Of a stretch of 64,000 bases of DNA, positions 25,176 to 46,393 are shown piece after piece. The position numbers and the translations under genes are program-made. Source of the stretch: Candidatus Altimarinota bacterium (GTDB lineage: Bacteria > Patescibacteriota > Gracilibacteria > UBA4473). Where the stretch lies: the NCBI GenBank assembly GCA_965231215.1, contig OZ246423.1, positions 416,571 through 480,570 on the forward strand, written 5' to 3'. Position 1 is the stretch's first letter; each line of letters starts with the position of its first letter. Below the pieces are notes generated by a model, which made no database searches, was not told the origin of the DNA, and saw only the letters and a list, made by a program, of their open reading frames with translations.

Positions 25176-25433
25176 ATGAATAAATATCGAGCAATATCCG
25201 GTGTTTGCCTACTTGGTTCGGCCTTTTTATTTTATTCAGCTTTTTGTTTAGTACAATGCGGCGATAGCCATTGTCCTTGGCAGAAATCCGCTTACGCCCA
25301 GAATATAACGGTGGATGTTCCCACTGACTACAACAACCTCTGGTCAGGGAGAAACAGTCCGGAATTTTATACGACTACGCCAGGGGCTAACGTAACTATT
25401 GTCACTCGGGTAGTCACCGGCGGAGGACATTAA
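25176..25433 (+). CDS. cassette 1 small membrane/secreted protein (S1)
   Basis: Track ORF of 85 aa with an N-terminal hydrophobic segment (ISGVCLLGSAFLFYSAFCLV), then Cys residues and the core AQNITVDVPTDYNNLWSGRNSPEFYTTTPGANVTI, ending in GGGH. It is a paralog of 36980..37267. Confidence 0.7.
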   Translation: MNKYRAISGVCLLGSAFLFYSAFCLVQCGDSHCPWQKSAYAQNITVDVPTDYNNLWSGRNSPEFYTTTPGANVTIVTRVVTGGGH

Positions 25434-25449
25434 AATATTTTTGAAAACC

Positions 25450-27516
25450 ATGAAAAAACATATATCCACTTCGAAAACCAGACATTCGGTTTCTCTACTA
25501 CTTTTAGGGTTATTGACTCTGAACGTAATCCCTACTACGGCACAGGCAGAAGAAAGCTCTCCTGAAAGTGCCTGTTTTGAAATTTTGACCCAGGAAGCCA
25601 AAAACAATAGTCAATTTGCTCGTTTGGATCTGAGCCAAGTAAAGAAAGTGAATACAAGAAGAGGTCGAGACATTAGCTCCAAACCTTTTGCAGTGAACAC
25701 TTATGAAAAATTCAAGGAAATTTTTAATACTCCGATACCCAAAAGTTCCGGGCATCTGCCGAAGTTTCCTCACCGAATAGACGAAATCCCCCGACTCTAC
25801 AGACATACTCCCCAAATACACAAATCCAATCGCCCTAATATTATGGTTGTCATCGCCAACGGCCCCAAAACCGACATTGGCAATGTAGACAATGATCCGG
25901 CAACAGAGTACATAAACGGATATTTTTTGGATACTCGATATGTAACTTTTGGCAGGGCGACCGATTTCACCTTTTCATTTCCGTCTCTGGATCCGAACGC
26001 TCATGAATCCGAAGATTTTCCGTATGGAGCGCCTTACCAAGACATGCGAGAGTACCTTCTCTTTACCCATCACCTGAGTCCAGAAAAAGGCGGAGACTTT
26101 GTAAACTGCGGGCTGGTGAGCCTTACCCCTTTGGGAGACTATAAACTCAAAGCTCAAACTCCCAATGAAAAATCCATAAGGTGGCAATATTACGGGGGGG
26201 ATAGAGTCCTAGGAACCGACTTTAAAAATAGAGATATCCACAGTTACAATAACGATGATGATGAAAGCAACCATAATAACAGAGGCAATTTTAGAGTTTC
26301 GGACGTAAGATTTACAATAGCGGCCAAAGAAATAGGCGAAGACCAGATCCCTAATTACGACAATGATCTGGCCAGAGTCAATGCTATTAATGTCACCTAC
26401 GATAACGGTAATTCTTATTATAACGGATATCCTCTGGCCAAAATAGCCGAACAAGTAATGACCGACCCGAAAAATCAAGACTTGACCTATTTGGAATTGA
26501 GAGCCCTTTTTTACCAAGCCATAACCGAAACTCTAGACCTGGGCATCATGGGGGAAGGTTCTGATTTGGCATTCGAGTCACAGCTTTTGGCCAGCACATT
26601 AGAGCAACCCAATACTAATTCTCAAAGTCATAGTGGTCCCATCATTATGGAGAAATTTCCCTACGAAACCTTCCGGGAAGTTCAAAAAATCAAGGATGAG
26701 GCGACTCGAGATTGGCTTATTGCCGCCGGAGCCGCCGGACATATCGAAAGTTCATTAGGCCTTAGGAATAGAACGGATCTAAACACTTTTGAGAAAAACG
26801 CATTAGAAAACCCCCTAACATTAGAACAAAAAATAGAAAACATACAGTATGTGGTAGACCAGGCGGAAGATGTGGCAGATATCAATCTGAACGACATTGA
26901 ATATAAAGACGTTGTTTTCGGAGAGGCCGTTATTCCTGCCAGCGACAAGAGAGTTAAAGAAATAGCCAAATCAGCCTACCTACAACCCGAAATTGATGCA
27001 CTTATGACACAAAAAGAGCAGGAAATACAAACCCTAAAAAATGCACAAAATCCAACCGATTCGAGTCTTCCCGATCAGCAAAAAAACTTCGGACAAATAC
27101 AGAAAATCGAAGACCGTTACTTTGGGAAACTCAACACCTTGATGTCATTTGAGAACGAATATAAAACCCTTAAAATCGAAGCCCTGGCAATAAAAAACAA
27201 GCATAAATCTAAGCGGATCAACCAAACACAATACGAAAGTCAGGCGCAAAAAGTATTGAAAGATTTCCAATCTTTGGTTCAAAAAACAAAAGTGAAAGGC
27301 CAAAGCCTCATTACCCCGACAAGAATCGATGAGCTCTCCGGTGGCCTCTTTGGAAACATCTCTAAAAAGAACATAACGGAGTTAACCGCAGAACCTCCAC
27401 AAGCGTCACACGACTTGACTAAATACATGAACTGGGGATTTGCTCTGTTTTTAGTAGTTCTAGCCTTCGCTTTAGCCTGTTTAGGACTAGTAAGCCTGAA
27501 AAAAAGTAAAAAATAA
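25450..27516 (+). CDS. cassette 1 exported protein with C-terminal TM anchor (M1)
   Basis: The track ORF starts at TTG 25441, and ATG at 25450 is likelier. It has a signal peptide (SVSLLLLGLLTLNVIPTTAQA) and a C-terminal TM plus basic tail (WGFALFLVVLAFALACLGLVSLKKSKK). It aligns end to end with 37311..39350. Confidence 0.85.
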   Translation: MKKHISTSKTRHSVSLLLLGLLTLNVIPTTAQAEESSPESACFEILTQEAKNNSQFARLDLSQVKKVNTRRGRDISSKPFAVNTYEKFKEIFNTPIPKSSGHLPKFPHRIDEIPRLYRHTPQIHKSNRPNIMVVIANGPKTDIGNVDNDPATEYINGYFLDTRYVTFGRATDFTFSFPSLDPNAHESEDFPYGAPYQDMREYLLFTHHLSPEKGGDFVNCGLVSLTPLGDYKLKAQTPNEKSIRWQYYGGDRVLGTDFKNRDIHSYNNDDDESNHNNRGNFRVSDVRFTIAAKEIGEDQIPNYDNDLARVNAINVTYDNGNSYYNGYPLAKIAEQVMTDPKNQDLTYLELRALFYQAITETLDLGIMGEGSDLAFESQLLASTLEQPNTNSQSHSGPIIMEKFPYETFREVQKIKDEATRDWLIAAGAAGHIESSLGLRNRTDLNTFEKNALENPLTLEQKIENIQYVVDQAEDVADINLNDIEYKDVVFGEAVIPASDKRVKEIAKSAYLQPEIDALMTQKEQEIQTLKNAQNPTDSSLPDQQKNFGQIQKIEDRYFGKLNTLMSFENEYKTLKIEALAIKNKHKSKRINQTQYESQAQKVLKDFQSLVQKTKVKGQSLITPTRIDELSGGLFGNISKKNITELTAEPPQASHDLTKYMNWGFALFLVVLAFALACLGLVSLKKSKK

Positions 27517-27533
27517 AAACACTCTCGAAAAAC

Positions 27534-30500
27534 ATGAAATTCTCAAATCTCGGTCTCTGGCGGGTGATATATGTGTTTAGTATCTGTTTTTTACTGGAAT
27601 CGTTAACCCTGGCACAAAACACAAATTTTGATACCAATGTAAATGTACAATACTCAAACCAAAACAATAGTGTCTCCACTCAATTTCCAGGAGATCGAAA
27701 TCAGGGAAGCTCAGCCCATGATCTAACCCCTTTGGGGCCGGTCGTTTCTCAGAGCACTACTACTAGTCAATCCGGAAGCGTAACCACAACCACCACAAGT
27801 GTCACCAGTCAAAGCCCCACTCTTTCGGGCATAAGTCAAAAAAACGAAGGTATTTGGTATGTTTCTTTCAGACGAGACAATGTCGGCGGAGTTCAAACCG
27901 GGAGTGAGATTGTAAGACACGACCTTACCCCGCCTCGGTGTAATAACCAATGGCCTCGCGGCCTGGATGGAGCCTGGACTAATAAGCCTATTGTTTTTGA
28001 TGCCGGAGATGCCGGTGTTTGTGTCGATCAATTAACCCAAAACGGAGTATTGCTCGATAACCAAGGTTCGGGTTGCCGAAAAGGGGAAACCATTAAAATT
28101 TTCGATCACGGGGAAAGTACAAATTTTTCAATTCAAGATAATGTCAACAATCTTAGCCCCACCGAATGCCAGACTCCCGAATCCAAAATTGACTGCTTGG
28201 TTCCTAGGTTAAATAGTGTTCAATTACAGCATAAAGGGTTGGGATTGCCAGTTGAACCCCTGGCTCAAAACCTACTACAGCCCAATACTTTCAGAGCTGA
28301 TGATGGAGCTTTGAATTTGATTATGAATGTTTTTGATAGTCCCCCTAATGCCACTTGTAACATTTCAGGTATTAATTGGAGCGAACTAAGTCACCAAAGT
28401 GAAATAAAACAAGAACAATATGACTTAGCCAATCTCATTAGTGAACAAGAACTCATAGAAAGAGAATTAGAACTACAAGAAGCCCAATTCATTACCGAGA
28501 ATGGAAACCTCATCCTGACTTTACTCAAAAATATTACCGCACAGATAGAAAAAAACCTATGGCAAGAAAGTATTAATGAACTTAACTCAGCCAACTCCGA
28601 AATAAAAACCAGACTAAGATCATTTAATGATGAAGTCCAAACACTCAATAATCTGAAATTAGAAAAACAAAAAATAAACCAAATTCAAGATTTATTACAG
28701 AACTCCGAATTTATAGATCCGGAAACCAAAAATCAACTAATCGAAAAGTTAAAAAAAGTAAATCCAGAATTTTTGGAATCAAGAATAGTAAATCACAATA
28801 TAGAAGTGCAAAAAATGGTTCAGGAATTTAGCCTTTTAGCTCGGAAGTTATCCGACTCATCAAAAATAGAACAAAACACGACTGTGCTTTCCGACCTTTT
28901 AGACCAATGGCAGGTGAGCATTACCAAAGATTATTCACACTTAATACCCAATTGGACCAGTGTCATTTTGGAAACAGACTCACTCATAAATCAACAATAC
29001 AACCAGCATTACTTACCACTCAAAAGTGCCTACCAAAATACCAACCTGAAAAGCAAACTTCAGGCTTTGCCCGAATATAATCCCGAAACCCATTTATCTC
29101 AGCTTCTGGAATCCTTTGAAAACGGAAGTGATAAGGCCAGACTAAATGTGATCGAAACGCGGGAAAATCTAAGCCAGCTCAATAGCGAGATGCATTCTGT
29201 GATTACCTACCTCAATAACTATCAGCCGGTAGACCAAAATTTTGATGAAAGGCCTATAGAAGACCTAATAAACAGAATCCAAATACTCAGCCTAAATGTG
29301 GAAACCCTAAACACAGACCTGGATGATGCCGTTGGAATACTCGGGAAGCCTCTATTGGACATTGACTATTACACACAGGAACCTACCGACGTGTTTATAT
29401 CAATACTTGACGAAACCATAAGCAAATCTCAACAAATTATTCAGGAAAGTACCCAAAAAATCACCAACAACAAAACACAAATTCAGGAAATTAAAGCACA
29501 AATCGAAACTAAAAACGAAGAAATTGCGGCCGTTTCAGCTCGTATTATCGAACTTCAAGAAGAAAGTATTGAGGATGACAGTGCTGACCTAAAACAACTA
29601 GAAATTTCTCACGTGGAGATTGAAAGAACTACCGGCCCAAGCAAAGTAGAAGAATTCATTAACCTATCTCCCACACCAGTCGGGGGGGATATTTATGAAT
29701 GGAATATTAATCAGTATACCTTCCCTGGAGAAAGTTATCCTATCTTCTCTCAGGCCGGAGACTACAAAATTACTCTTAGGATTTACGATAAAGCCGGTAA
29801 CCAGGTGACCCCTAACCGGATCGCTCATATAAGAATTCATCCGGCCGCCGCCCACGAAACCCAAACAGAAAACACTCTCACTCACGATTGTGATAAAACA
29901 AACCTCTGGGCCAACTACAGTGATCGATGTGATATTGATTTCACCGTCAAAGATGAATGGGAAAATCCTATTGCACAAAACTCTGCCCTAGAGATTTATG
30001 CCGTTACACAAGATACAGAAGGTTCTTACGACATCATTACTGGAAATGGGGAAAACTACCCCAACGGGCTCAGGTTTGACGCAGGGGTCAAAGTAGACGG
30101 TAAACACAAAGTTAATTGGAATAGCAGCACCAGTGGCGCTCAAAACATGAAAATGAGAGCCATACTCCCAACCGTAAATATCATTAACGGTATCGACGGA
30201 GCCGCTCTAATGTCTGTCAGTCGAAAACCACTCGCTCTAAATTTTATTTATCCACAAGTAAATGAGAGAGGGCTTGTGCAGCCTGAAACTCAGAACTTTG
30301 GCATTGATATCCACGCAAGATTCAAACCTTGGGTTTATCTACACCTAAGTGATAAACAAGATAACCAACCTCCAACCAGCCCTTGGGTCGTTCAAAAAGA
30401 TGTAGAAAAATGTATCTATACTTATGCTACAACCGAGTCTTCTTCTAGAAACTTGCCGAGAAACTTCAATGTATACCTCAAAGGCCATACAGACAATGGC

Positions 30501-32152: not shown

Positions 32153-32956
32153 ATGCCCAAATTTAGTATTATCACCATTAATTACGGAAACTCCCAAAAG
32201 ATTAAAAAGCTTTGGGAATCTCTGGCACAAAAATCACCAAAAAATGATTTTGAGTTTATTGTGGTAGACAACGCTTCTCCAAATGAAGACGGGGAAGCGA
32301 TTCGAGTATTTTTGGAAGACAAGCAAGAGTGCCACACAATTTTACTGCATAAAAACTTGGGGTTCGGTGGCGGGTATAAAGAGGGCGTAAAATTTGCACA
32401 AGGCGAGTATTTGGGAGTCATAAATCCAGATATAGAAGTAAAAGCAAACTGCCTAGAGGCACTTTTAGAAGTTCTAGAAAAAAAAGAAAACGCCGGAATT
32501 GTAGCCCCTCGGTTACTCAACCATGATGAAACACCTCAGCAAAATGCTCGAAAATTTCCCACTGTTTGGGTGATGTTTGGACGTCGACTCTCTAGTAAGT
32601 TTAAATGGGCCTATGATAGTGATCCTGCCTGGTACAAAACCGAAAAAGTTACCCCTGTAGACTGGGTACAAGGCAGTTTTATGTTGATGAAAACTAAATT
32701 TTTTACAGAAACACTACAAGGATTCGACCCTCGATTTTTTCTCTTTTTAGAAGATACTGATCTCTGCCGAAGAACTTGGGAAAAAGACAAAAGAGTCTTG
32801 CTAGTACCAGAAGCCCAAGCCTACCACGGAGAAGAAAGATTATCTGGCGGCCATTTCTGGAAAGCTATTTGGAAAAAAACTTTTTGGGTACACGTACAAT
32901 CTGCCTGGAAGTACTTTTTTAAATACCTATTTAAGAAAAAACCAAAGGTAAAATAA
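32153..32956 (+). CDS. family-2 glycosyltransferase
   Basis: Motifs seen are FSIITINYGN, FEFIVVDNASPNEDGE and FLEDTDLCRR (GT2 DxD/ED motifs). Its stop overlaps the next start by 1 nt (TAATG). Confidence 0.85.
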   Translation: MPKFSIITINYGNSQKIKKLWESLAQKSPKNDFEFIVVDNASPNEDGEAIRVFLEDKQECHTILLHKNLGFGGGYKEGVKFAQGEYLGVINPDIEVKANCLEALLEVLEKKENAGIVAPRLLNHDETPQQNARKFPTVWVMFGRRLSSKFKWAYDSDPAWYKTEKVTPVDWVQGSFMLMKTKFFTETLQGFDPRFFLFLEDTDLCRRTWEKDKRVLLVPEAQAYHGEERLSGGHFWKAIWKKTFWVHVQSAWKYFFKYLFKKKPKVK

Positions 32957-33816
32957 TGCCCATTATTGATACCCATAACCACATTTATTTCCCAGGTTTA
33001 GAGACTGAAACCGTTATTAAAGCCGCTCAAAAAGTTGGAGTGGGCAGACAAGTCCTCATTGGAATCGATGAGCTTTCCTGCCTCCAGGTAATCAATCTTA
33101 TTAAAAAGTATGAAGATCTTTACGGGACTCTTGGGCTCCATCCCTGTGACGTAGACCAACTAGGTAGGCGCAACGAGTTTCAAGACTATCCAGGGGCTGG
33201 CAATTACACATTCAAATGTCACACTCTCCCAGAGTACTTCCAGTGGATTGAAACGCTTTACAGCCAAAATTCTGACCCTATTGTAGGATTCGGGGAAACT
33301 GGATTTGACCGCTATCACCGCGATACTCCGACCCTAGTCAAACTCCAAGAAGAGAGTTTTGAGTCTCATTTGGAACTGTGCGTAAAACACCAAAAAACCT
33401 GTATAATTCACTGTCGAAAGGCCACCCAAAACTGTCTTAATTTTATGAAAAAACAGGCCCATAAATTTAAGTCTATAAACTTTATCTGGCACTGTTTTGA
33501 CGAAGACTTAAACACCGCAAAAGCGGTCATTGACCTAGGCGGGAAAATTGGTATCGGCGGTATCATCACCTACCCCAAATCTGAAACTCTTAGAGAAGTG
33601 GTAAAAGCCATCCCCCTCCAATCCCTCGTTACCGAAACCGATGCTCCATTTCTTACCCCTTACCAAGCCCGCAAAAAACATACAAAAAATTCACCCGAAT
33701 TTTTACCTGAAATTATCACTACTATCGCCCAAATCACACAGCAAAATCCAAGAGACTGTGCTGATAGGCTATATCAAAACGGATGTGAAATTTTCAACCT
33801 CAAAAATGGTGACTAG
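32956..33816 (+). CDS. tatD: TatD-family metal-dependent hydrolase/DNase
   Basis: Motifs seen are IIDTHNHI, GLHPCD, IHCRKA and VTETDAPFLTP, in 286 aa. Confidence 0.85.
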   Translation: MPIIDTHNHIYFPGLETETVIKAAQKVGVGRQVLIGIDELSCLQVINLIKKYEDLYGTLGLHPCDVDQLGRRNEFQDYPGAGNYTFKCHTLPEYFQWIETLYSQNSDPIVGFGETGFDRYHRDTPTLVKLQEESFESHLELCVKHQKTCIIHCRKATQNCLNFMKKQAHKFKSINFIWHCFDEDLNTAKAVIDLGGKIGIGGIITYPKSETLREVVKAIPLQSLVTETDAPFLTPYQARKKHTKNSPEFLPEIITTIAQITQQNPRDCADRLYQNGCEIFNLKNGD

Positions 33817-33883
33817 GGGCGGACTTGAACCGCCGACCTCCGGGTTATGAATCCGACGCTCTAACCAGCTGAGCTACCCAGTC
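33807..33883 (-). tRNA. tRNA-Met(CAT), elongator or lysidine-type Ile2 not distinguishable; CCA encoded
   Basis: The minus strand folds as a cloverleaf. The acceptor is GACTGGG/CCTAGTC (7 bp, one G-U), the D arm is GCTC-AGCTGGTTA-GAGC, and the anticodon loop is TTCATAA (CAT). The variable loop is AGGTC, the T arm is GGCGG-TTCAAGT-CCGCC, and the discriminator A is followed by CCA. G1-C72 argues against an initiator. It overlaps the tatD stop by 10 nt on the opposite strand. Confidence 0.9.
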
Positions 33884-33929
33884 ACGAACGCGATTGTATG
33901 ATTTTTGTGCCTTCGGTCAACTGACAATC

Positions 33930-37267: not shown

Positions 37268-37310
37268 AATCTAAACTCCATAAAACCTCATAACTATATA
37301 CTAACTAAGC

Positions 37311-39350: not shown

Positions 39351-39375
39351 AACACAACCTTGCTAAAAATAAAAT

Positions 39376-42300
39376 ATGAATTTAAAAAAAATCCTACAGC
39401 TTTCAACGGCCGCTCATTTGATCCTAATGAGCGGCATTGTTTTAGCTCAAAGCAATACCACCAACATCCAAACCAGTATTACCAATACCTACACTAATAA
39501 TACCACTAGTGTTAATACCCAAATTATTGGCCGTAATGCTGGAGGTGCAAGTCCTCATGATCTGAGTTCAGCCTCACCAAACAGGCGTATCCCTATCGGA
39601 CTAGGTACACTCAGTCAAACCCCTCGACTGGATGGAACGAGTCAAAAACGAGAAGGCGTATGGTATGTATCGTTACGACGAAGTACGATTTCTGGTGTTC
39701 AAACTGGAAACCAAATTGTACGACACGATCTCACCCCTCCTCGGTGTAATAACCAATGGCCAATCGGACTCAATGGAGAATGGACTAACGCTCCCATTGA
39801 ATTTGATGCTGGAGATCCCGGCGTCTGTACTGATCAACTCACGCAAAATGGAGTCACTTATGATAACCGTGGAGCTGGATGTCGAAGCGGGGAAAAAGTC
39901 CGTGTGCTCCAGCATGGACAAAGTGTTAATTTTCCTATTACAGACAATGTAGGAAACCAAAAACCTGGTGGATGTACTACACCCCCTTCTAAAATTGATT
40001 GTCGACTCCCCATTGTAAGCTCACTTCTACTACAACATAAAGGGTTGAACCTTAACACGGAAACTCCGAGTACGAATGCCAGCACACCAAATACTTTCCG
40101 TGCTGATGATGGAGTGCTAAATTTGGTAATGGAACTTCGAGACGCCGAAGAATCTATTTCCTGCGGACTTTCTGGCATTAACTGGAATGAACTGAGCCAT
40201 GAAAGTGAAATTGGAGGTCTGCAATACCAATTGGCTAATCTCATTGATGAATTAGCCCTTATGGAAGACGAATACGACCTTAAAAAAGCAGAAGAAATTG
40301 TAGCCAAAGGGAATGTTATTGAATCTAGTATTGGAAAGCTAAGCCATGAGCTACAAAGAAACCTATGGAAACAATCTTTCCAAGCCTTAAATCTATCTGA
40401 TTCTATTGTAAAACAACCCCTTGCAGAGTTCCAATCTCAACTAAGCGTTTTAGGAGGGCGAACTATTGAGAAAGCCAATATGGATATCATTATGGAGATT
40501 CTTGAAAGTGAAAAATTTGATGACCTAGATCAAAGAGATGATTTTGTAAATGCCCTTCAAGACACGAATCTTGAGTTCTTAGAATCTCAAATCAGTAACT
40601 ATATATTCTTAGCTAATGATACCGTGAACAACTTCGACGTCCCCTCAAAAGGAGCTCCAGATGAGATTGAGGGATTCTCACGCCTCACAAACCTACTCAA
40701 TGAGTGGCAGGCTGAAATTACAGAAAATTATGCGCACGTAATCCCGAATTGGACAGAATCTATTCTTGCAACAGATACGGCCATAAACGACCAGTATAAT
40801 GATCCATACCTTCCCTACAAAGGCGCTCACGATGGAACGAATATTCAGGTTAAAATGGCTCAACTTTACGAGTATACCCCAGAAGATAATCTCCCCCAAC
40901 TCACGACTAACCTTGAGAGTGGAGCTAATCAATCCAGACTCAATATTGGAGAAGCCATTCTACAATTAGATCAACTTAATAGCGAGATGAGCTCTGTTAT
41001 TACTTATCTTAATAACTACGACCCAGTAGATGGAGAATTTGATCCAAGCCCCGTTGAAGAGCTTATTGATAGAGCCTTAAACTTTCAACTAAGTGTCGAG
41101 ACCGTTCAAGCAGATTTAGATGAGTTTTTAGGAATTCTTGGAAATCCTCTCTCTGAATTTGATTACTACAAAGTCCTCCCAACAGATGCTATTATTTCTA
41201 GCTTAGATAGTACTATCTCAGACTACCAAACAGAACTCACTTCTAATATTTTTGAGCTTGAAACCAAAAAAACTAATACCGTCGCTTTACTGGCACAAAT
41301 CGAAACTAAAAACGAAGAAATTGCGGCCGTTTCAGCTCGTATTATCGAACTTCAAGAAGAAAGTATTGAGGATGACAGTGCTGACCTAAAACAACTAGAA
41401 ATTTCTCACGTGGAGATTGAAAGAACTACCGGCCCAAGCAAAGTAGAAGAATTCATTAACCTATCTCCCACACCAGTCGGGGGGGATATTTATGAATGGA
41501 ATATTAATCAGTATACCTTCCCTGGAGAAAGTTATCCTATCTTCTCTCAGGCCGGAGACTACAAAATTACTCTTAGGATTTACGATAAAGCCGGTAACCA
41601 GGTGACCCCTAACCGGATCGCTCATATAAGAATTCATCCGGCCGCCGCCCACGAAACCCAAACAGAAAACACTCTCACTCACGATTGTGATAAAACAAAC
41701 CTCTGGGCCAACTACAGTGATCGATGTGATATTGATTTCACCGTCAAAGATGAATGGGAAAATCCTATTGCACAAAATTCTGCCCTAGAGATTTATGCCG
41801 TTACACAAGATACAGAAGGTTCTTACGACATCATTACTGGAAATGGGGAAAACTACCCCAACGGGCTCAGGTTTGACGCAGGGGTCAAAGTAGACGGTAA
41901 ACACAAAGTTAATTGGAATAGCAGCACCAGTGGCGCTCAAAACATGAAAATGAGAGCCATACTCCCAACCGTAAATATCATTAACGGTATCGACGGAGCC
42001 GCTCTAATGTCTGTCAGTCGAAAACCACTCGCTCTAAATTTTATTTATCCACAAGTAAATGAGAGAGGGCTTGTGCAGCCTGAAACTCAGAACTTTGGCA
42101 TTGATATCCACGCAAGATTCAAACCTTGGGTTTATCTACACCTAAGTGATAAACAAGATAACCAACCTCCAACCAGCCCTTGGGTCGTTCAAAAAGATGT
42201 AGAAAAATGTATCTATACTTATGCTACAACCGAGTCTTCTTCTAGAAACTTGCCGAGAAACTTCAATGTATACCTCAAAGGCCATACAGACAATGGCGTG

Positions 42301-43842
42301 ATTCTTTACAATAAAGATCTTAAATCACCCGAAAAAGGATACCCTATTACTTTCCGAAACATTATTGGGGTTTCCAGCGCTGAAAACGATGGAACCACGG
42401 GTTCTCCTGCCGCAGAACAAACCTGTACACATCTAGGATTCTCTGGCGGTCAGGTAAACGTAAGCTCTGCTTATACTTCTAGAATTGAATATGTCGTAGA
42501 TGGAAAACAAATTGTTCTACCAGGGGGTAACCTTGGAATGTTCGCAGGAGAAAGTTGTGTCTTTGCTGACATTTGTCCTGTGAGCTGCCCAGCAGATCCT
42601 CCAGTAGGACACCGATGTCATATTTGTTCTCTCTACCCTGACCTCTGTTGTACAGACCCAGTGGCTTGTAATCCAATCTGTACCAGTCCGCCCTGTTCTG
42701 GAGTTCCTGTTTGTACTAATCCTCCTTGCTCTGGTTTAGCCGGAGGCGGTGATGACGACGACGATGATGACGACGACGATGACGATGATGATGACGATTT
42801 TGCAGTTGAATGTGCCGGACTTACCCCTCAAGAATGTATCTGTCAGGTGATCCTCCCAGGCTCTTGTGTAGAAACTGAGTACCTAGAACCAGGCGCTGAT
42901 ATTGAAGGTGGTTTCCTCGCTTCAGACGATGAATTTGTGTACATCAATTCTCAAACTAAAACCATTGAAGTAAACGATGAAGCCGTTGGCCTTGGAGACA
43001 CTTTCGTAACAGACGTACGAGAAGATGTTAATAGAAATATCTACGATATCACTCGAGGTATCCCCGCTATTCCAAACAGTGGAAATACCATTGATCTAAA
43101 ACTTCGAGATCTAGAACACAAAGGAATCACTTACATTGAGGGCGGTTTAGTCAGAATCGGTTTCCATAGTAATGGAGCTGTCGGGACTCAGAATAATCCG
43201 GCCCAAATGTCAGGCGGAGCCCATACCCTCATCATCAAAGACGGGAACCTCCTAATCGCTGGTGACCTAGCTTATGACTCCATTGATGATTCATTCGGTA
43301 TTGTGATGCTCAATACCAGCAGCGAAACTCCATTCTTAGCTGGACCTGACGTTGGTAATGTCTTCATCCACCATAACGTAAAACACGTAGTTGGAAACAT
43401 CTACGCTGATGGCTCTATCCTCAGTACTTCATCTCTCTCCGCTCCAACAGGCATAGAACCCGATATTGTAGCTGAACGAGAAAACATTGATGGAGTCCTA
43501 AAACAACAACTCATACTTACCGGCTCTATTCTTACAAGAAACACCCTTGGAGGCTCCCTTCTGGTAGAACCTAAAGATCCTTGGGGCAGAGTCGTCTCTA
43601 TTGAAGACGCTCAAAAATATGACCTTCACTATATACGAAGATACCTTCCTCGGTTTGAGAGCCCCTCTCCTGGCGTGATTCTCCATCAAAACAAACCAGA
43701 CTGTACTCAATTCGCTCCTGATGTCTGCTACGACAATAAACACTCCTTCATCATTAGAATTGACCCAAGAATCAGAGAAAATCCCCCTCCTGGGTTTAGC
43801 CTCTCAGAATCTGTTGATTTCCAATCTAATTTTGGGAACTAG
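39376..43842 (+). CDS. cassette 2 giant secreted protein (G2)
   Basis: Track ORF of 1488 aa with a signal peptide (LSTAAHLILMSGIVLAQS). The N-terminal 639 aa are homologous to G1 but strongly diverged. The C-terminal 849 aa are identical to G1. Confidence 0.9.
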   Translation: MNLKKILQLSTAAHLILMSGIVLAQSNTTNIQTSITNTYTNNTTSVNTQIIGRNAGGASPHDLSSASPNRRIPIGLGTLSQTPRLDGTSQKREGVWYVSLRRSTISGVQTGNQIVRHDLTPPRCNNQWPIGLNGEWTNAPIEFDAGDPGVCTDQLTQNGVTYDNRGAGCRSGEKVRVLQHGQSVNFPITDNVGNQKPGGCTTPPSKIDCRLPIVSSLLLQHKGLNLNTETPSTNASTPNTFRADDGVLNLVMELRDAEESISCGLSGINWNELSHESEIGGLQYQLANLIDELALMEDEYDLKKAEEIVAKGNVIESSIGKLSHELQRNLWKQSFQALNLSDSIVKQPLAEFQSQLSVLGGRTIEKANMDIIMEILESEKFDDLDQRDDFVNALQDTNLEFLESQISNYIFLANDTVNNFDVPSKGAPDEIEGFSRLTNLLNEWQAEITENYAHVIPNWTESILATDTAINDQYNDPYLPYKGAHDGTNIQVKMAQLYEYTPEDNLPQLTTNLESGANQSRLNIGEAILQLDQLNSEMSSVITYLNNYDPVDGEFDPSPVEELIDRALNFQLSVETVQADLDEFLGILGNPLSEFDYYKVLPTDAIISSLDSTISDYQTELTSNIFELETKKTNTVALLAQIETKNEEIAAVSARIIELQEESIEDDSADLKQLEISHVEIERTTGPSKVEEFINLSPTPVGGDIYEWNINQYTFPGESYPIFSQAGDYKITLRIYDKAGNQVTPNRIAHIRIHPAAAHETQTENTLTHDCDKTNLWANYSDRCDIDFTVKDEWENPIAQNSALEIYAVTQDTEGSYDIITGNGENYPNGLRFDAGVKVDGKHKVNWNSSTSGAQNMKMRAILPTVNIINGIDGAALMSVSRKPLALNFIYPQVNERGLVQPETQNFGIDIHARFKPWVYLHLSDKQDNQPPTSPWVVQKDVEKCIYTYATTESSSRNLPRNFNVYLKGHTDNGVILYNKDLKSPEKGYPITFRNIIGVSSAENDGTTGSPAAEQTCTHLGFSGGQVNVSSAYTSRIEYVVDGKQIVLPGGNLGMFAGESCVFADICPVSCPADPPVGHRCHICSLYPDLCCTDPVACNPICTSPPCSGVPVCTNPPCSGLAGGGDDDDDDDDDDDDDDDDFAVECAGLTPQECICQVILPGSCVETEYLEPGADIEGGFLASDDEFVYINSQTKTIEVNDEAVGLGDTFVTDVREDVNRNIYDITRGIPAIPNSGNTIDLKLRDLEHKGITYIEGGLVRIGFHSNGAVGTQNNPAQMSGGAHTLIIKDGNLLIAGDLAYDSIDDSFGIVMLNTSSETPFLAGPDVGNVFIHHNVKHVVGNIYADGSILSTSSLSAPTGIEPDIVAERENIDGVLKQQLILTGSILTRNTLGGSLLVEPKDPWGRVVSIEDAQKYDLHYIRRYLPRFESPSPGVILHQNKPDCTQFAPDVCYDNKHSFIIRIDPRIRENPPPGFSLSESVDFQSNFGN
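41293..43840 (+). repeat. 2,548-bp near-identical direct repeat, copy 2 (3' part of G2)
   Basis: See copy 1. Identity starts at gcacaaatcgaaactaaaaacg and ends at the first base of the stop codon (TGA in G1, TAG in G2). The flanking sequence is unrelated. Confidence 0.95.
42751..42798 (+). repeat. (GAY)16 poly-Asp tract in G2
   Basis: It has the same sequence and length as 30954..31001. Confidence 0.95.
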
Positions 43843-43861
43843 AAACGAAAATAAAAAGAAA

Positions 43862-43887
43862 AGAGCAGGCCAAGGCCTGCTCTTTTC
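43862..43887. terminator. bidirectional terminator between convergent G2 and the RnfD-like gene
   Basis: The GC-rich palindrome agagcaggcc-aa-ggcctgctct (43862-43883) is flanked by an A-run upstream and tttt downstream. Confidence 0.7.
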
Positions 43888-43897
43888 ATAACTGAAC

Positions 43898-44866
43898 TTA
43901 TGGTAAAGTTCTCTGATCAAAAACATCACCAAACAGTTCATCAAACTTCATAGAAAAAGGTTTACAAAAAAGCTGTGTACAACGATTGGTTAAAACCTCC
44001 GGCCAAACCCCATTGTATTTAACAGAGTGCTGAAAACTTAGTCCAGCAAGAAGGAGGAAACAAAAACCAATAAACAACCCCTGAACTAAATTTCTTACCC
44101 CTTTTTCTTCACAGTACATAAAAACAACTTCCATACACTGTACAAAGAAATAAGCGGCAAAAAAGCTATAATTTTCATTAATAAAAAGCCTAAAAATAAA
44201 AAACAGCAAAGATATCTGAGTCACAAATAAAATCCTATAAATTCTTTTGGCAGGAATCGTAGCCGGATCGGTAAACCCAAAAAACATTTGGATAAAAAAG
44301 CTCCCCGTTAAATACAAAATCAATAAATCTTCCCAGCTATAAGTAGTAAAGAGATTGAGCCAGACAAAAAAGCTCACAAAAAAAGCAATTACCGCATCCA
44401 TAAACCCAACCCGCCACATCACAATACTTCCTAAAACAGAAATAGCGGTTAAAACCTTCCAATCACTTCCCCACTGCAACGGATTAGTAAAAGCCACGTA
44501 AGGAAATAAGGCAATAGTCAGTAAAATAGCCGAATAAGAAGGATTTAAAAAGTGCTTTCCTCTAAAACGCACAAAGTGCTTAGAAAAAATAGTCATAAAC
44601 GCGGCAAAAGCATACAACCAAGGATTAGCCGTCCGCAAAAACAAACAAATACCAATCCCCGAATTCACGGCTGAAAACGGAAAGGCTTTTTTACCTGTAG
44701 CCGCGTACTTAAAAATAAAATCTAAACTCAATATAAGACTAAGAACAATAAAAATCTCAGTCCAATCAATGTCTACATAACCGAAATATTTACCTCCTAC
44801 CAAAAGGAGCGAACCAATGGCAAAAGTTTGTAATAATTGTGGATTAATATTTTTAAAAGCAATCAT
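43898..44866 (-). CDS. polytopic membrane protein, RnfD/NqrB-like candidate
   Basis: Track ORF of 322 aa with about 8-9 TM segments. GKHFLNPSYSAILLTIALFP resembles the ...FNPA... block of the NqrB/RnfD family, and FFGFTDPATIP resembles its TDP.T.P block. The assignment is tentative. Confidence 0.5.
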   Translation of the reverse strand: MIAFKNINPQLLQTFAIGSLLLVGGKYFGYVDIDWTEIFIVLSLILSLDFIFKYAATGKKAFPFSAVNSGIGICLFLRTANPWLYAFAAFMTIFSKHFVRFRGKHFLNPSYSAILLTIALFPYVAFTNPLQWGSDWKVLTAISVLGSIVMWRVGFMDAVIAFFVSFFVWLNLFTTYSWEDLLILYLTGSFFIQMFFGFTDPATIPAKRIYRILFVTQISLLFFIFRLFINENYSFFAAYFFVQCMEVVFMYCEEKGVRNLVQGLFIGFCFLLLAGLSFQHSVKYNGVWPEVLTNRCTQLFCKPFSMKFDELFGDVFDQRTLP

Positions 44867-44940
44867 AATAATTTAATACTAGGGAAATCATAATAATTAT
44901 TTTAACAAAATTATGAAAATGATATATTAAATATAATCCA

Positions 44941-46209
44941 ATGCGCAAAAAATTAAACCAATTCATTGAAGCCTACAAAAAGGGCTTCTGCATCGAAGAA
45001 ATTGAAAAAGACCGTGTCTTGCAATGGACCTTTGGCGCCTTTATCTTTGGATTATTTTTAAACTTCAATACCTGGGTGGGTAATGGTAGATTTACCAAAG
45101 AAGCTGTGGATGATTTCGGACACGTATGCTGGCCTTATGCCCAAAACTGTGAAGTTTTTGGCTTCCTTTCTGCACTTCCTTACGGCTATACCCAAAACAT
45201 GTGGTTTATGGGGTTATTTGGGCTTCTAGCACTGGCCGTTTATTTCATGTACCAAAAAAAGTGGCACTATGCCCAAATGATCGTTTTAATATGCCTCCTT
45301 TGGAAGGCGCTTATTACCTTTACCTCTATGTGGCATACCGGTAATTATGAATATTATCTCATTGTATTTGGGCTCATTTTGCTGTGTTTTCCACACAAGC
45401 TTTTCTTTTTGAAGTTTAGTTTGGTGCTTTTTTACTTCCTTTCCACCGCTGCCAAGATCAATGATAGCTGGATTTTAGGAAGCTACTTTACCGCTCTAAA
45501 AACAGGTTTGCCAATATTCCCCGATAGCACCATTCCCTTTTGGACAAATCTAGTGATCCTTATGGAAATGATTTTTGCGTGGTTCTTACTGGGACCAAAC
45601 ACAAAATTCCGAAAACTGATTTTTCTCTTCTTTGTAGCCTTCCATTTGTATTCAGGAATATTGGTAGGTTTCCGGTATCCAGCAACCGTCATGCCTATGC
45701 TGTTAATTCTATTTGGCCCTTGGTACAAACACACGTTACCACCAACAGGCTTAAAAACCCTTCCTGGATGGATTTTAGTCGGCCTTTTATGTTTAGGGCA
45801 GGCCTGGTCACACTTTATCCCAGGAGACGAGAGACTGACACTTGAAGGGAACTTCTACGGTCTGTATATGTTTGAAGCCAATCACCAGTGCTTTTCTACG
45901 CGAACCATCTACTACAAAGATGAAACGGAACCCCAAAAAGGTCAAAGAGTAAGCTTTACTTCACGAGGACGGTGTGATCCATACCGGTATTGGTTTCGGT
46001 TCAACAAGCAGTGTGAAAAAGAGACAAATATCAAGCGTATCGAGTGGACCTTTGACCATTCTATCAATGGACATCCATTCTATCGAATTGTCGATACTCC
46101 AAACATTTGTGATCTTGAATATAAACCTTTCACCAAAAATAATTGGATCAAAACCCCTGATACTGGTGCTGAGGTCGTAGGTTATCCAGGAAAAAACTAC
46201 TATTATTAA
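44941..46209 (+). CDS. polytopic membrane protein, HTTM-like candidate (paralog c)
   Basis: Track ORF of 422 aa with the same conserved blocks (CWPYAQNC, PHKLFFLK, GLPIFPDS, FHLYS, IPGDERLTLEGNFYGLYMFEANHQC, RCDPY, DHSINGHPFYRIVDTPNICDLEYKPF, VGYPGKNYYY). Confidence 0.6.
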   Translation: MRKKLNQFIEAYKKGFCIEEIEKDRVLQWTFGAFIFGLFLNFNTWVGNGRFTKEAVDDFGHVCWPYAQNCEVFGFLSALPYGYTQNMWFMGLFGLLALAVYFMYQKKWHYAQMIVLICLLWKALITFTSMWHTGNYEYYLIVFGLILLCFPHKLFFLKFSLVLFYFLSTAAKINDSWILGSYFTALKTGLPIFPDSTIPFWTNLVILMEMIFAWFLLGPNTKFRKLIFLFFVAFHLYSGILVGFRYPATVMPMLLILFGPWYKHTLPPTGLKTLPGWILVGLLCLGQAWSHFIPGDERLTLEGNFYGLYMFEANHQCFSTRTIYYKDETEPQKGQRVSFTSRGRCDPYRYWFRFNKQCEKETNIKRIEWTFDHSINGHPFYRIVDTPNICDLEYKPFTKNNWIKTPDTGAEVVGYPGKNYYY

Positions 46210-46210
46210 A

Positions 46211-46393
46211 ATGGACAATTTTACTATCTACACAGAACCCGTTATCCAATTAATTCCCATGCAGGTATGGATAAAATCTTACTGGCATATTATCTACCCA
46301 CTCTGGTGGAGTATCTTTGCAACCGTAAGTTTGGTAGTAATTTATGTATTTTTAATAGAGCCGTATTTAAAAACAAAGGGTAAAAAGCCGTAA
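46211..46393 (+). CDS. small membrane protein with WWS motif
   Basis: Track ORF of 60 aa that starts 1 nt after the stop of paralog c. Its TM is PLWWSIFATVSLVVIYVFLI, and it resembles the product of 33930..34154. Confidence 0.5.
   Translation: MDNFTIYTEPVIQLIPMQVWIKSYWHIIYPLWWSIFATVSLVVIYVFLIEPYLKTKGKKP

What the first reader, a model, noticed from the sequence alone, without database searches (positions are those of the whole stretch)
25176..46393. Duplicated three-gene surface cassette interleaved with polytopic membrane enzymes: candidate undescribed envelope system
The same gene triplet occurs twice in the same orientation, at 25176-32045 and 36980-43842. Each triplet has a small protein S with an N-terminal TM and the conserved core AQNI..VPT.Y..WSGRN.P.F...PG..VTI. 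It also has a ~685-aa exported protein M with a signal peptide and a C-terminal TM anchor. The third member is a ~1500-aa secreted giant G. G contains a Cys-containing N domain, a long coiled-coil-like stretch, PKD/Big-like beta domains, a Cys/Pro-rich segment, a 16-Asp run and a beta-helix-like tail. I recognise no characterised family in S, M or the N half of G. Around and between the triplets lie three paralogous ~420-aa polytopic membrane proteins with conserved extracytoplasmic Cys-containing C-terminal domains (HTTM-like by eye). Two small WWS-motif membrane proteins, an RnfD/NqrB-like membrane protein and a GT2 glycosyltransferase are also present. The 1-nt TAATG overlaps suggest tight co-expression within sub-operons. 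My inference is a membrane-tethered giant surface fibre or adhesin (S-M-G) that is produced or post-translationally matured by a dedicated membrane redox/modification module.
Basis: partly seen in the sequence, partly recalled or inferred. Interest (0 to 1): 0.85.

Follow-up and report, generated by a model that had tools for sequence, protein, structure and literature searches.

The report
Surface-fibre cassette beside carboxylase-like enzymes
An ultra-small (CPR) bacterium carries two copies of an unannotated three-gene set that most likely builds a membrane-anchored giant surface fibre. It sits among three copies of a membrane enzyme shaped like the human vitamin-K-dependent carboxylase, a kind of enzyme not reported in these bacteria in the papers I could search.

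Summary
Two same-strand S-M-G triplets sit at the stated coordinates. S, M and the N half of G are about 45-50% identical between copies. The last 2,548 nt of the two G genes are 99.92% identical, which points to gene conversion.

S, M and G match no Pfam or NCBIfam family and no PDB sequence. A confident M model has no fold match. S→M(→G) recurs in at least six Gracilibacteria-type genomes and is rare: 38 representative clusters among 1.84 billion proteins.

The three polytopic paralogs (H) are structural homologues of vitamin-K-dependent γ-carboxylase, the only significant PDB match. The catalytic-lysine motif is invariant.

However, H and its small partner T (the "WWS" protein) form a module found widely in CPR genomes that lack S-M-G. 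S-M(-G) also occurs without H nearby. H is therefore not a dedicated maturase. In this lineage H-T appears to have moved from its ancestral site to the cassette, and here it is triplicated.

An RnfD-like protein without a flavin-attachment motif is the membrane gene most tightly linked to S.

Best reading: an autonomous, lineage-specific surface-appendage cassette next to a relocated carboxylase-like module. Functional coupling is possible but unproven.

The parts
25176..25433 (+). S1: 85-aa protein with an N-terminal TM, a Cys pair near the membrane, the conserved WSGRN core and a short Gly tail
   Evidence: The S-family HMM hits only loci that also carry M.
25441..27516 (+). M1: 691-aa type-I membrane protein with a signal peptide, a beta-rich head (41-370), a helical stalk (408-648) and a C-terminal TM (657-690)
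   Evidence: AF2 model with pLDDT 86.7 and pTM 0.79. No fold match in PDB or BFVD. Rare family of 38 representative clusters.
27534..32045 (+). G1: 1503-aa secreted giant protein. In order: Ser/Thr-rich linker, Cys-containing N domain, helical region (~300-690), beta-rich middle, Cys/Pro-rich segment, 16-Asp run, conserved ~350-aa C-terminal domain
29496..32043 (+). Copy 1 of the 2,548-nt block that is 99.92% identical between G1 and G2 (gene-conversion tract)
32153..32956 (+). GT2 glycosyltransferase, a syntenic neighbour. Overlaps TatD by one base (TAATG)
   Evidence: Lies next to Prs and TatD in L001, L008 and L010 as well.
32956..33816 (+). TatD-family hydrolase, a housekeeping neighbour
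33807..33883 (-). tRNA-Met (CAT anticodon)
33930..34154 (-). T1: small WWS-motif protein with a C-terminal TM. Universal partner of H
34280..35539 (-). H1: vitamin-K-dependent-carboxylase-like (HTTM-like) polytopic membrane protein. Has Gln at the position aligned with GGCX D263
35539..36789 (-). H2: carboxylase-like paralog. Overlaps H1 by one base (TAATG) and is transcribed divergently from S2
36980..37267 (+). S2: 95-aa protein, same design as S1, with the acidic tail GDDGDGDDGH
37311..39350 (+). M2: 679 aa, 48% identical to M1
39376..43842 (+). G2: 1488 aa. Its N half is diverged from G1 and its C half is identical to G1
41293..43840 (+). Copy 2 of the 99.92%-identical block
43858..43887 (.). 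GC-rich hairpin with a 13-bp stem between the convergent G2 and R genes. Terminator-like
43898..44866 (-). R: RnfD/NqrB-superfamily-like polytopic membrane protein. No flavin-attachment motif. Conserved C-terminal TNRCxxxxC
44941..46209 (+). H3: carboxylase-like paralog and the one that was modelled
46211..46393 (+). T2: small WWS-motif partner of H3, starting 1 nt after it
16453..18141 (-). PRTase + PQQ-type beta-propeller protein. It lies within a few kb of H-T in the other CPR genomes sampled. Here it sits beside NusA with no H-T between them

Best explanation
The region holds two separable things.

**(A) S-M-G is a self-contained cassette for a cell-surface appendage.** It is restricted to Gracilibacteria-type ('Altimarinota') CPR bacteria.
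- M is a type-I membrane protein. A globular beta-rich head sits on a long helical stalk that ends in a C-terminal TM anchor.
- S is a single-pass co-anchor with a short exposed domain and usually an acidic Gly/Asp tail.
- G is a Sec-exported fibre of about 1,500 aa with no anchor of its own. It is held at the surface through M and S.
- S, M and the N half of G have diverged together between the two copies, while the C half of G is kept identical by gene conversion. I therefore infer that the N half of G docks on its cognate M/S pair and the C half is the shared, exposed working end. This is inference.
- The likely role is attachment to a host or prey cell (inference).

**(B) H plus the small protein T is a CPR-wide membrane enzyme module with the fold of vitamin-K-dependent γ-carboxylase.**
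- It keeps the residues aligned with the catalytic Lys, the quinone-pocket Trp, the neighbouring Asn, the 'GLY' linker and the inter-domain cysteines.
- It most likely performs a quinol- and O2-driven, base-generating modification of an extracytoplasmic substrate. This is inferred from homology. The chemistry and the substrate are unknown.

**How (A) and (B) relate here.**
- In this lineage H-T appears to have been relocated from its ancestral position beside a PQQ-propeller gene. In the window and in L001 it lies beside the cassette, and in the window it is amplified to three copies.
- R, an RnfD-like protein without a flavin site, is the membrane gene most consistently adjacent to S.
- Whether H, T or R act on S, M or G is open.
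For: **Cassette as a unit.**
- The order S→M→G is conserved in the window (twice), L001 (twice), L006/L007/L010, L016/L017 and L018. L008 and L019 carry partial copies, and L020 carries S→M alone.
- The cassette is duplicated repeatedly in different genomes.
- The family is rare: 38 representative clusters among 1.84e9 proteins.

**Topology and shape.** Hydropathy and the M1 model (pLDDT 86.7) show the head, stalk and TM.

**Co-divergence versus conversion.**

| Segment | Identity between copies |
|---|---|
| S | 45-49% |
| M | 44-56% |
| G N domain | 61% |
| G helical region | 44% |
| G C half | 100% |

**H is carboxylase-like.**
- The H3 model has pLDDT 89.8 and pTM 0.90.
- Foldseek finds only GGCX: 14 chains, E 3e-7 to 3e-5, TM 0.53-0.63. 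The next hit is at E 0.74.
- hhalign places invariant K172 on K218, W177 on W223, N135 on N159 and Y309 on Y395. C358 falls on C450 by hhalign, and C63 on C99 by eye. The residue roles are taken from PMC12589487 and PMC13486548.

**H-T is CPR-wide.**
- More than 570 homologues were found. The few that carry a source name are from Kaiserbacteria and Paceibacteria.
- The T-family HMM hits every H locus sampled.

**Relocation.** The window has DnaJ-Pth-DivIC-PQQ-NusA with nothing between PQQ and NusA. L008 and L010 have NusA-H-T-PQQ-DivIC-Pth-DnaJ.

**R.** It is adjacent to S in L001, L006/L007/L010, L008 and L018.

**Known precedent.** Giant surface proteins are an established theme in the sister lineage Absconditabacteria (PMC8080830).
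Against: - No experiment or expression data exist. Surface location and the S:M:G contacts are inferred from topology only.
- G's fold was not modelled.
- The docking orientation (N half at the base) is an inference from divergence patterns. It could be the reverse.
- The residue mapping to human GGCX used a GGCX sequence recalled from memory. Its positions K218, C99, C450, H160, L394 and W501 check out.
- GGCX H160 is Tyr in H. D263 is Glu in 34 of 46 members but Gln in 12, including H1.
- No Pfam HTTM hit appears in any of the 46 members.
- CPR bacteria are generally thought to lack quinone synthesis (my own knowledge). That makes literal vitamin-K chemistry uncertain.
- The comparative sample is small, about 7 distinct genomes carrying the cassette.
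Confidence: 0.5

Rival explanations
1. Dedicated maturation system. H, T and R post-translationally modify or oxidatively fold S, M or G. One example would be carboxylation or another base-driven modification of acidic stretches, so that the fibre binds Ca2+ and assembles.
For: - H-T lies immediately upstream of S, co-directional in L001 and divergent in the window with promoter-like sites on both strands.
- H-T appears to have been relocated from its ancestral site, and it is triplicated here beside the two cassettes.
- Outside this clade, H loci carry small N-terminally anchored proteins with Gly/Asp-rich tails that resemble S in design: L002, L012, L013 and L014.
- S tails are acidic, and G carries a 16-Asp run and Glu-rich helices.
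[quoted passage not shown] That SdpB is an HTTM-family protein is my own knowledge.
Against: - H-T occurs in many CPR genomes with no S, M or G.
- S-M(-G) loci L016, L018 and L020 have no H or T in the flanks.
- In L008 and L010, H is about 8 kb away behind housekeeping genes.
- The S-like small proteins elsewhere are not detectably homologous to S.
- The poly-Asp run is not conserved in L001.
Confidence: 0.3
2. S is not a structural anchor. It is a precursor peptide with a hydrophobic leader and a Gly/Asp-rich core, processed by H in the manner of a RiPP. M and G would then serve export, immunity or display.
For: - The L013 small protein next to H has a Cys/Gly/Ser-rich C-terminus. It lies about 2-4 kb from YcaO and nitroreductase genes.
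- H2 gives a weak hit to the HvfX RiPP-maturation family (E 0.0011, far below the cut-off).
Against: - S is always paired with M, not with H.
- The S core (WSGRN...PG..V) is conserved like a folded or interacting segment. The tail varies and is nearly absent in S1.
- No protease or exporter gene is in the cassette.
Confidence: 0.07
3. G belongs to an already known adhesin or secretion class, and the cassette is a diverged version of it. Candidates are sortase-anchored pili or fibrils, T1SS RTX adhesins, T5SS, S-layer proteins and type IV pilus tip adhesins.
For: - A G-like C-terminal domain occurs in a 1008-aa protein next to a PilB-like ATPase in L015.
- The helical region gives sub-threshold hits to coiled-coil proteins, including trimeric autotransporter fragments.
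Against: - S, M and G contain no LPXTG, RTX, prepilin or PEP-CTERM motif.
- There is no Pfam or NCBIfam adhesin, SLH or pilin domain.
- No sortase, ABC/MFP or pilus genes lie in the cassette.
- The M fold has no match.
Confidence: 0.06
4. The duplication, or at least the 2.5-kb identical block, is an assembly artefact.
For: A near-identical 2.5-kb repeat about 9 kb apart is the sort of sequence an assembler can misplace.
Against: - The S, M and G-N copies are only 44-61% identical.
- The identical block has 2 mismatches, and its 3' end falls exactly at the stop codon.
- L001, L016 and L020 show independent multi-copy arrangements.
- The source contig is 1.33 Mb.
Confidence: 0.02

Closest known systems
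Human vitamin-K-dependent γ-glutamyl carboxylase (GGCX/VKGC; HTTM superfamily)
   Same: - H shares the whole-chain fold, both the TM domain and the extracytoplasmic beta domain. GGCX is the only significant PDB match.
- The motif YF[LI][SA][TG]xxK[IL]xxxW[IV]xG, which contains the catalytic Lys, is invariant.
- Residues aligned with N159, Y395/L394, H287 and the C99-C450 cysteine pair are conserved.
   Different: - H is about 420 aa against 758 aa. It lacks the large propeptide-binding lobes and the C-terminal arch.
- H160 is replaced by Tyr and N290 by Ser. D263 is Glu or Gln.
- There is no Pfam HTTM hit.
- H comes with an obligatory small partner, T.
- The host lineage is generally thought to lack quinone synthesis (my own knowledge).
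- Substrate and chemistry are unknown.
Bacterial and viral HTTM-type proteins with non-carboxylase roles (B. subtilis SdpB; giant-virus epoxidase-desaturases)
   Same: - Each is a membrane enzyme of the same superfamily encoded beside its presumed client.
- The viral enzymes keep K218 and have Glu at the D263 position, as most H proteins do (PMC13486548).
- SdpB is needed to mature a secreted peptide (PMC13343845). Its assignment to the HTTM family is my own knowledge.
   Different: - H keeps the region corresponding to GGCX 374-418, which the viral enzymes lack.
- No sequence comparison with SdpB could be run.
- No desaturase or SdpA/SdpC-like genes lie nearby.
RnfD / NqrB membrane subunits
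   Same: R gives sub-threshold Pfam NQR2_RnfD_RnfE hits in 4 of 5 members (best E 6.4e-7). It also gives a weak PDB hit to RnfD (E 0.07).
   Different: - No other Rnf or Nqr subunits lie nearby.
- R has no flavin-attachment motif.
- R has a conserved C-terminal TNRCxxxxC instead.
- It is a stand-alone gene next to S.
Giant surface proteins of Absconditabacteria and Gracilibacteria (e.g. Vampirococcus lugosii)
   Same: These are secreted or membrane-associated proteins of more than 1,400 aa in a ~1.3 Mb CPR genome. They are presumed to form a fibrous, host-binding surface (PMC8080830).
   Different: - Those proteins carry recognisable WD40, PKD, DUF11, integrin or fibronectin domains.
- G has none above threshold.
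- G comes as a fixed three-gene cassette with two dedicated membrane proteins.
Gram-positive wall-spanning fibrillar adhesins
   Same: General design: a stalk plus a distal binding region, with copy-to-copy variation and recombination between paralogs.
   Different: There is no LPXTG or sortase signal and no wall-binding domain. Anchoring would be non-covalent, through the separate membrane proteins M and S.

Membership tests
VKGC / HTTM superfamily (for H1-H3) | Polytopic HTTM transmembrane fold plus an extracytoplasmic beta domain | tested here: met
   The AF2 model has pLDDT 89.8. Foldseek against PDB returns only GGCX chains, E 3e-7 to 3e-5, prob 1.0, TMq 0.53-0.63.
VKGC / HTTM superfamily (for H1-H3) | Catalytic lysine (GGCX K218) in the TM5 motif, with the quinone-pocket Trp (W223) | tested here: met
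   hhalign places K172 on K218 and W177 on W223. Both are invariant in 46 of 46 members and in all three paralogs. Caveat: the GGCX sequence was recalled from memory, and its landmark positions were verified.
VKGC / HTTM superfamily (for H1-H3) | Acidic partner of the lysine (D263) and the quinol-binding N290 | tested here: inconclusive
   Matching motifs by eye puts E209 at the D263 position. It is Glu in 34 of 46 members and Gln in 12, including H1. S238 falls at the N290 position. There is no structure-based alignment.
VKGC / HTTM superfamily (for H1-H3) | Glu-pocket residues N159, H160 and Y395, and the carboxylation-essential region 374-418 | tested here: inconclusive
   N135 (on N159) and Y309 (on Y395) are conserved, and the 374-418 region aligns. 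H160 is replaced by Tyr or Phe.
VKGC / HTTM superfamily (for H1-H3) | Significant match to the Pfam HTTM/VKG_Carbox or VKGC_lumenal_dom models | tested here: not met
   No HTTM hit at E<=1 in 46 members. VKGC_lumenal_dom scores only E 0.0073 and in 2 of 46 members. The PDB profile search finds nothing.
VKGC / HTTM superfamily (for H1-H3) | Vitamin K hydroquinone- and O2-dependent epoxidase or carboxylase activity | not testable with these tools
   Needs an enzyme assay or detection of Gla (+44 Da) by mass spectrometry.
Rnf/Nqr complex subunit D/B (for R) | Pfam NQR2_RnfD_RnfE match above the gathering score | tested here: inconclusive
   26.0 bits against a cut-off of 27.7. 4 of 5 family members hit at E<=0.01.
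Rnf/Nqr complex subunit D/B (for R) | Covalent-FMN attachment motif (D[AG]x[ST][GS]A[ST]) | tested here: not met
   Neither the strict nor the loose motif is present in any of 5 members.
Rnf/Nqr complex subunit D/B (for R) | Encoded with the other Rnf or Nqr subunits | tested here: not met
   None in the window or in any related locus.
Glycosyltransferase family 2 | Pfam Glycos_transf_2 domain | tested here: met
   E 9e-22, 78 bits against a cut-off of 23.3.
Sortase-anchored, RTX/T1SS, type IV pilin, PEP-CTERM or S-layer surface proteins (for S, M, G) | LPXTG signal; GGxGxD repeats; prepilin cleavage motif; PEP-CTERM; SLH or other family domains | tested here: not met
   The regex scans are negative, apart from a non-canonical LPTAS 20 aa before the M2 TM. 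No Pfam or NCBIfam domains.
Bacterial Ig-like / PKD domains (middle of G) | Significant profile match | tested here: inconclusive
   Big_3_2 E 0.013, OmpL47-type E 0.043, ColH PKD E 0.13. G was not modelled.

The most novel reading that the evidence does not exclude
CPR bacteria possess a previously unrecognised, phylum-wide relative of the vitamin-K-dependent carboxylase (H) with a small partner protein (T). It would carry out a carboxylation-type or other strong-base-driven modification outside the cell. Its clients would be small membrane-anchored proteins with acidic Gly/Asp tails (S and its analogues). In Gracilibacteria-type lineages these clients would seed Ca2+-dependent assembly of giant host-binding fibres on a new-fold anchor (M). 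That would mean Gla-like protein chemistry in bacteria thought to lack quinone synthesis, possibly using quinones taken from the host.
Probability: 0.12. Interest if true: 0.9.

Novelty: new variant of a known kind. Interest (0 to 1): 0.62.

Why it matters
- **How these bacteria attach.** CPR bacteria live attached to other cells, and how they attach is largely unknown. This work defines a conserved, recombining three-gene unit that can be tested as an attachment organelle: two membrane anchors, one of them with a fold that has no known match, plus a 1,500-aa fibre.
- **An unexpected enzyme family.** A widespread, unannotated CPR family turns out to have the fold and the catalytic-lysine motif of the vitamin-K-dependent carboxylase. 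That enzyme is best understood in animals. If the CPR family is active, it would raise the question of which quinone and oxidant these reduced, often anaerobic organisms use. It would also point to a new extracytoplasmic protein modification in bacteria.

Tried and rejected
**Searches that failed or returned little.**
- Full-length G1 against the 5.8-billion-protein index returned nothing, not even G1 itself. The cause is not known. I suspected the poly-Asp or low-complexity stretches, but the clean C-terminal query also failed to return G1 or the L001 G proteins, so these proteins may not be reachable through the index at all.
- The G C-terminal domain alone found a single hit, P0121, which is a fragment of a protein from a code-25 genome.
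- The pattern-based locus scans were insensitive. The genome-contig scan gave 1 locus and the metagenome scan gave 2. Most comparative loci came instead from exact-protein look-ups of H and M homologues.

**Searches that were negative.**
- PDB sequence and profile searches for G, M, H and R.
- G against phage genomes with tblastn.
- Foldseek of M against PDB and against BFVD.
- Global hhalign of H against GGCX failed. Only local mode gave the two motif-bearing segments.

**Ideas considered and dropped.**
- Alternative genetic code: rejected, because TGA is used as a stop in 4 of 41 ORFs.
- The PQQ-propeller as an extracytoplasmic partner of H: rejected, because it has no signal peptide or TM.
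- GT2, TatD and Prs as cassette components: rejected. They co-occur only in the four genomes that share overall synteny, and they are absent from L016, L018 and L020.

**Weak test.** A crude filter for small N-anchored proteins with acidic Gly tails found them only near H or S-M-G loci. The sample is too small for statistics.

Full report
**1. What is in the sequence**

The ORF map matches the finding exactly. On the + strand lie S1 (25176-25433), M1 (25441-27516), G1 (27534-32045), GT2 (32153-32956) and TatD (32956-33816). A tRNA-Met follows on the - strand (33807-33883).

Next comes a - strand operon: H2 (35539-36789), H1 (34280-35539) and a small protein (33930-34154). Then, on the + strand, come S2 (36980-37267), M2 (37311-39350) and G2 (39376-43842). 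After them lie a strong hairpin (43858-43887), the RnfD-like gene R on the - strand (43898-44866), H3 (44941-46209) and a second small protein (46211-46393). RF1 ends the region.

The TAATG one-base overlaps at GT2/TatD and at H2/H1 are real. TGA serves as a stop in 4 of 41 ORFs, so the standard code applies. The source contig is 1.33 Mb. The closest genome found is labelled Candidatus Altimarinota, a phylum in the Patescibacteria group; I know it as Gracilibacteria.

**2. The duplication**

S1/S2 are 49% identical, M1/M2 48% and the three H proteins 44-47%. The two G genes are mosaic. The N domain is 61% identical and the helical region 44%. From 29496/41293 to the stop codon, however, the two DNAs differ at 2 of 2,548 positions, and identity collapses immediately after the stop.

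This is the signature of gene conversion confined to the 3' half of G. It is not an assembly collapse.

**3. S, M and G**

None of the three matches Pfam or NCBIfam. Neither G nor M matches any PDB sequence, whether searched singly or as a profile of 4-26 homologues.

- **S** has an N-terminal TM, two cysteines just outside it, a conserved core (…VPT.Y..WSGRN.P.F…PG..V.I) and usually a Gly/Asp tail ending in His or Asn.
- **M** was modelled from 26 homologues, with pLDDT 86.7 and pTM 0.79. It shows a beta-rich head (about 41-370), a disordered linker, a helical region containing a 47-residue helix, and a C-terminal TM. Foldseek finds nothing significant in PDB (best E 0.059) or in BFVD (best E 0.052).
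- **G** has a signal peptide and no other hydrophobic segment. It then has a Ser/Thr-rich linker and a Cys-containing N domain. A 390-residue region follows that contains 1% Gly and no Cys, and whose only PDB hits are sub-threshold matches to coiled-coil proteins. After that come a beta-type middle part (sub-threshold Ig/PKD hits), an 18% Cys / 20% Pro segment, a 16-Asp run and a strongly conserved ~350-aa C-terminal domain. The poly-Asp run is not conserved in the nearest relative.
- No LPXTG, RTX, prepilin or PEP-CTERM signal is present in any of the three.

**4. Distribution of the cassette**

An exhaustive phmmer search with M1 against 1.84 billion representative proteins gave only 38 clusters at E<=1e-3. 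Contexts were recovered through exact-protein look-ups and scored with locally built HMMs. The order S→M→G holds wherever the flanks are long enough to see it.

| Locus | Arrangement |
|---|---|
| Window | S-M-G twice |
| L001 (OZ245819.1, 1.30 Mb) | G-M-S (- strand), R, R, H, T, then S-M-G |
| L020 (same genome as L001, ~150 kb away) | S-M only |
| L006 / L007 / L010 | R, then S-M(split)-G |
| L008 | R, S, M (partial) |
| L016 / L017 | G-S-M-G |
| L018 | R, then S-M-G |
| L019 | partial cassette |

S-M is therefore the invariant core, G nearly always follows, and multi-copy arrangements recur. A G-type C-terminal domain also ends a 1008-aa protein in a recoded (code 25) genome. That protein lies beside a PilB-like ATPase, with no S or M nearby.

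**5. The polytopic paralogs**

H3 has more than 570 homologues. Every source that names one calls it a hypothetical protein, and the named ones come from Kaiserbacteria and Paceibacteria. No member hits Pfam HTTM. Two of 46 give a weak VKGC_lumenal_dom hit.

The AlphaFold model built from 46 sequences has pLDDT 89.8 and pTM 0.90. It matches vitamin-K-dependent γ-carboxylase and nothing else. Fourteen GGCX chains score E 3e-7 to 3e-5 with TM 0.53-0.63 over the whole chain, and the next hit is at E 0.74.

I ran local hhalign against human GGCX. The GGCX sequence was recalled from memory. K217/K218, C99, C450, H160, L394 and W501 fall at their published positions in it. The alignment covers H3 86-180 with GGCX 120-226 and H3 274-404 with GGCX 361-503.

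Residue roles come from PMC12589487 and PMC13486548. The mapping is:

| GGCX residue | Role | H3 residue | Conservation in the H family |
|---|---|---|---|
| K218 | catalytic base | K172 | 46/46 |
| W223 | quinone pocket | W177 | 46/46 |
| N159 | Glu pocket | N135 | 46/46 |
| Y395 | Glu pocket | Y309 | 44/46 |
| C99-C450 | inter-domain disulfide | C63 and C358 | 46/46 and 44/46 |
| H160 | Glu pocket | Y136 | Tyr or Phe, so not conserved as His |
| D263 (by eye) | partner of K218 | E209 | Glu 34/46, Gln 12/46 (including H1) |

C358 falls on C450 in the hhalign output; C63 on C99 and E209 on D263 are motif matches by eye.

Unlike the truncated giant-virus epoxidases, H retains the segment corresponding to GGCX 374-418. 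H is thus a compact, divergent member of the carboxylase superfamily with an apparently intact quinol-activating centre. Its chemistry and substrate are unknown.

**6. What travels with H**

A profile of the small 'WWS' protein (T) hits an ORF in every H locus examined. In most it lies immediately beside H. This includes both copies in the window and a 54-aa ORF in L001 that the gene caller had missed.

A PRTase + PQQ-type beta-propeller gene lies within a few kb of H in L002, L008, L010, L012, L013 and L014. It has no signal peptide or TM, so it is cytoplasmic. DCC1-type thiol oxidoreductases occur in two of the loci.

The order in L008 and L010 is NusA-H-T-PQQ-DivIC-Pth-DnaJ. The window has DnaJ…Pth-DivIC-PQQ-NusA, with only 181 nt between PQQ and NusA. 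I infer that H-T has left its ancestral site. In the window and in L001 it lies at the cassette, in three copies in the window.

**7. R, GT2 and TatD**

- **R.** Four of five members hit Pfam NQR2_RnfD_RnfE below the gathering score, with a best E of 6.4e-7. The profile also weakly matches a solved RnfD (E 0.07). No flavin-attachment motif and no other Rnf or Nqr genes are present. A C-terminal TNRCxxxxC is conserved. R lies next to S, transcribed from the opposite strand, in L001, L006/L007/L010, L008 and L018. That makes it the membrane gene most specifically tied to the cassette. It is absent from the flanks of L016 and L020.
- **GT2, TatD and Prs.** These accompany the cassette only in the four genomes that share general synteny. 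They are best read as neighbours.

**8. Are the enzymes and the cassette one system?**

Evidence against a dedicated system:
- H-T is widespread in CPR genomes that lack S-M-G.
- Three S-M(-G) loci show no H or T within the sequenced flanks.
- In two genomes H lies about 8 kb away behind housekeeping genes.

Evidence for some link:
- H-T has moved to the cassette in this lineage and is amplified to three copies here.
- H-T sits directly upstream of S. It is co-directional in L001. In the window it is divergent, with promoter-like sites on both strands.
- Outside the clade, all four independent H loci carry small N-terminally anchored proteins with Gly/Asp-rich tails within about 6 kb of H, such as …GDDGDDGGN in L002. 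These resemble S in design but are not detectably homologous to it.

The sample is too small for statistics. I put functional coupling at roughly 0.3.

**9. Most likely mechanism**

Shown:
- S, M and G form a conserved unit.
- The topologies are as described.
- The M model has a head, a stalk and an anchor.
- The C half of G has undergone gene conversion.
- H has the GGCX fold and lysine motif.
- H and T always occur together.

Inferred:
- G is a surface fibre held by M and S.
- The N half of G, which has diverged in step with S and M, is the docking end.
- The homogenised C half is the exposed, shared functional end.
- The role is host or prey attachment, as proposed for giant proteins in the sister lineage (PMC8080830).
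- H performs a quinol- and O2-driven, base-generating modification of an extracytoplasmic client.

**10. Novelty**

I found no paper in the searchable library that joins HTTM or γ-carboxylase with CPR or Patescibacteria. The cassette is a new, lineage-restricted variant of the 'giant surface protein' theme, with dedicated anchors of unknown fold. H is a new, divergent branch of a known enzyme superfamily in an unexpected host group. The combination is interesting but mechanistically unproven.

**11. Limits**

- G could not be modelled.
- One large database search was wasted.
- The pattern-based locus scans were insensitive.
- The residue mapping to GGCX relies on a remembered sequence and on local profile alignment, not on a structural superposition.
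- Only about seven distinct cassette-bearing genomes were available.

Noticed in passing
window 29496-32043 and 41293-43840: The 3' halves of G1 and G2 are 99.92% identical (2 mismatches, at 29981 and 31976). The tract ends exactly at the stop codon, while the 5' halves are about 40-60% identical at the DNA level. This points to ongoing gene conversion between the paralogs.
   Followed up: yes
window 16453-18141 (-), next to NusA at 18323-19609: A cytoplasmic PRTase + PQQ-type beta-propeller protein. In the six other H loci examined, H-T lies within a few kb of its orthologue. Here the H-T slot between it and NusA is empty (181 nt).
   Followed up: partly
L002 9362-9559; L012 2417-2695; L013 7702-7980; L014 1494-1733 and 9307-9597: Small N-terminally anchored proteins with Gly/Asp-rich (in L013 also Cys-rich) C-terminal tails lie within about 6 kb of the carboxylase-like gene in unrelated CPR lineages. 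The S-family HMM does not detect them. They may be clients or analogues of S.
   Followed up: partly
L013 9259-13464: Next to H in a Kaiserbacteria genome lie an arylsulfotransferase, a nitroreductase-family gene, a YcaO gene and a DCC1-like thiol oxidoreductase. This is a RiPP-like neighbourhood, and a Cys/Gly-rich small protein sits just upstream of H.
   Followed up: no
L015 8414-11440 (read with code 25): A 1008-aa protein in a recoded (UGA = Gly) genome ends in the same C-terminal domain as G. It follows a PilB-like ATPase, and no S, M, H or T genes are there. The G C-terminal domain is therefore a mobile module in this class.
   Followed up: partly
L006 4759-7505 and L007 8227-10511: In one population M is split into two ORFs. 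One encodes the head. The other encodes the stalk plus TM and has its own signal peptide. This supports a two-module architecture for M.
   Followed up: partly
L020 9715-11944 (same genome as L001): A third S-M pair lies about 150 kb from the other two cassettes, with no G, R, H or T nearby. This S lacks the two membrane-proximal cysteines.
   Followed up: partly
window 43898-44866 and homologues (alignment A5): The RnfD-like protein has an invariant C-terminal TNRCxxxxC motif and no flavin-attachment site. S has a conserved Cys pair near the membrane. This may hint at thiol chemistry.
   Followed up: no
window 1857-4916 (-), 5096-8398 (-), 8734-11565 (+), 11631-13766 (+): Upstream of the region lie a VirD4/TraG-type coupling ATPase (1019 aa), a DUF11/DUF7507 surface protein (1100 aa) and two further large proteins (943 and 711 aa) with no Pfam match.
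   Followed up: no
window 52129-52515 (-): A small protein matching the superfamily IV 4-TMS holin family (Pfam Phage_holin_4_2, E 5e-15), set among housekeeping genes.
   Followed up: no
window 22581-23309 and 23371-24057 (+): Two proteins of unknown function (242 and 228 aa) with no Pfam match lie between MiaB and Prs, just upstream of cassette 1. L008 has a 246-aa gene at the same place.
   Followed up: no
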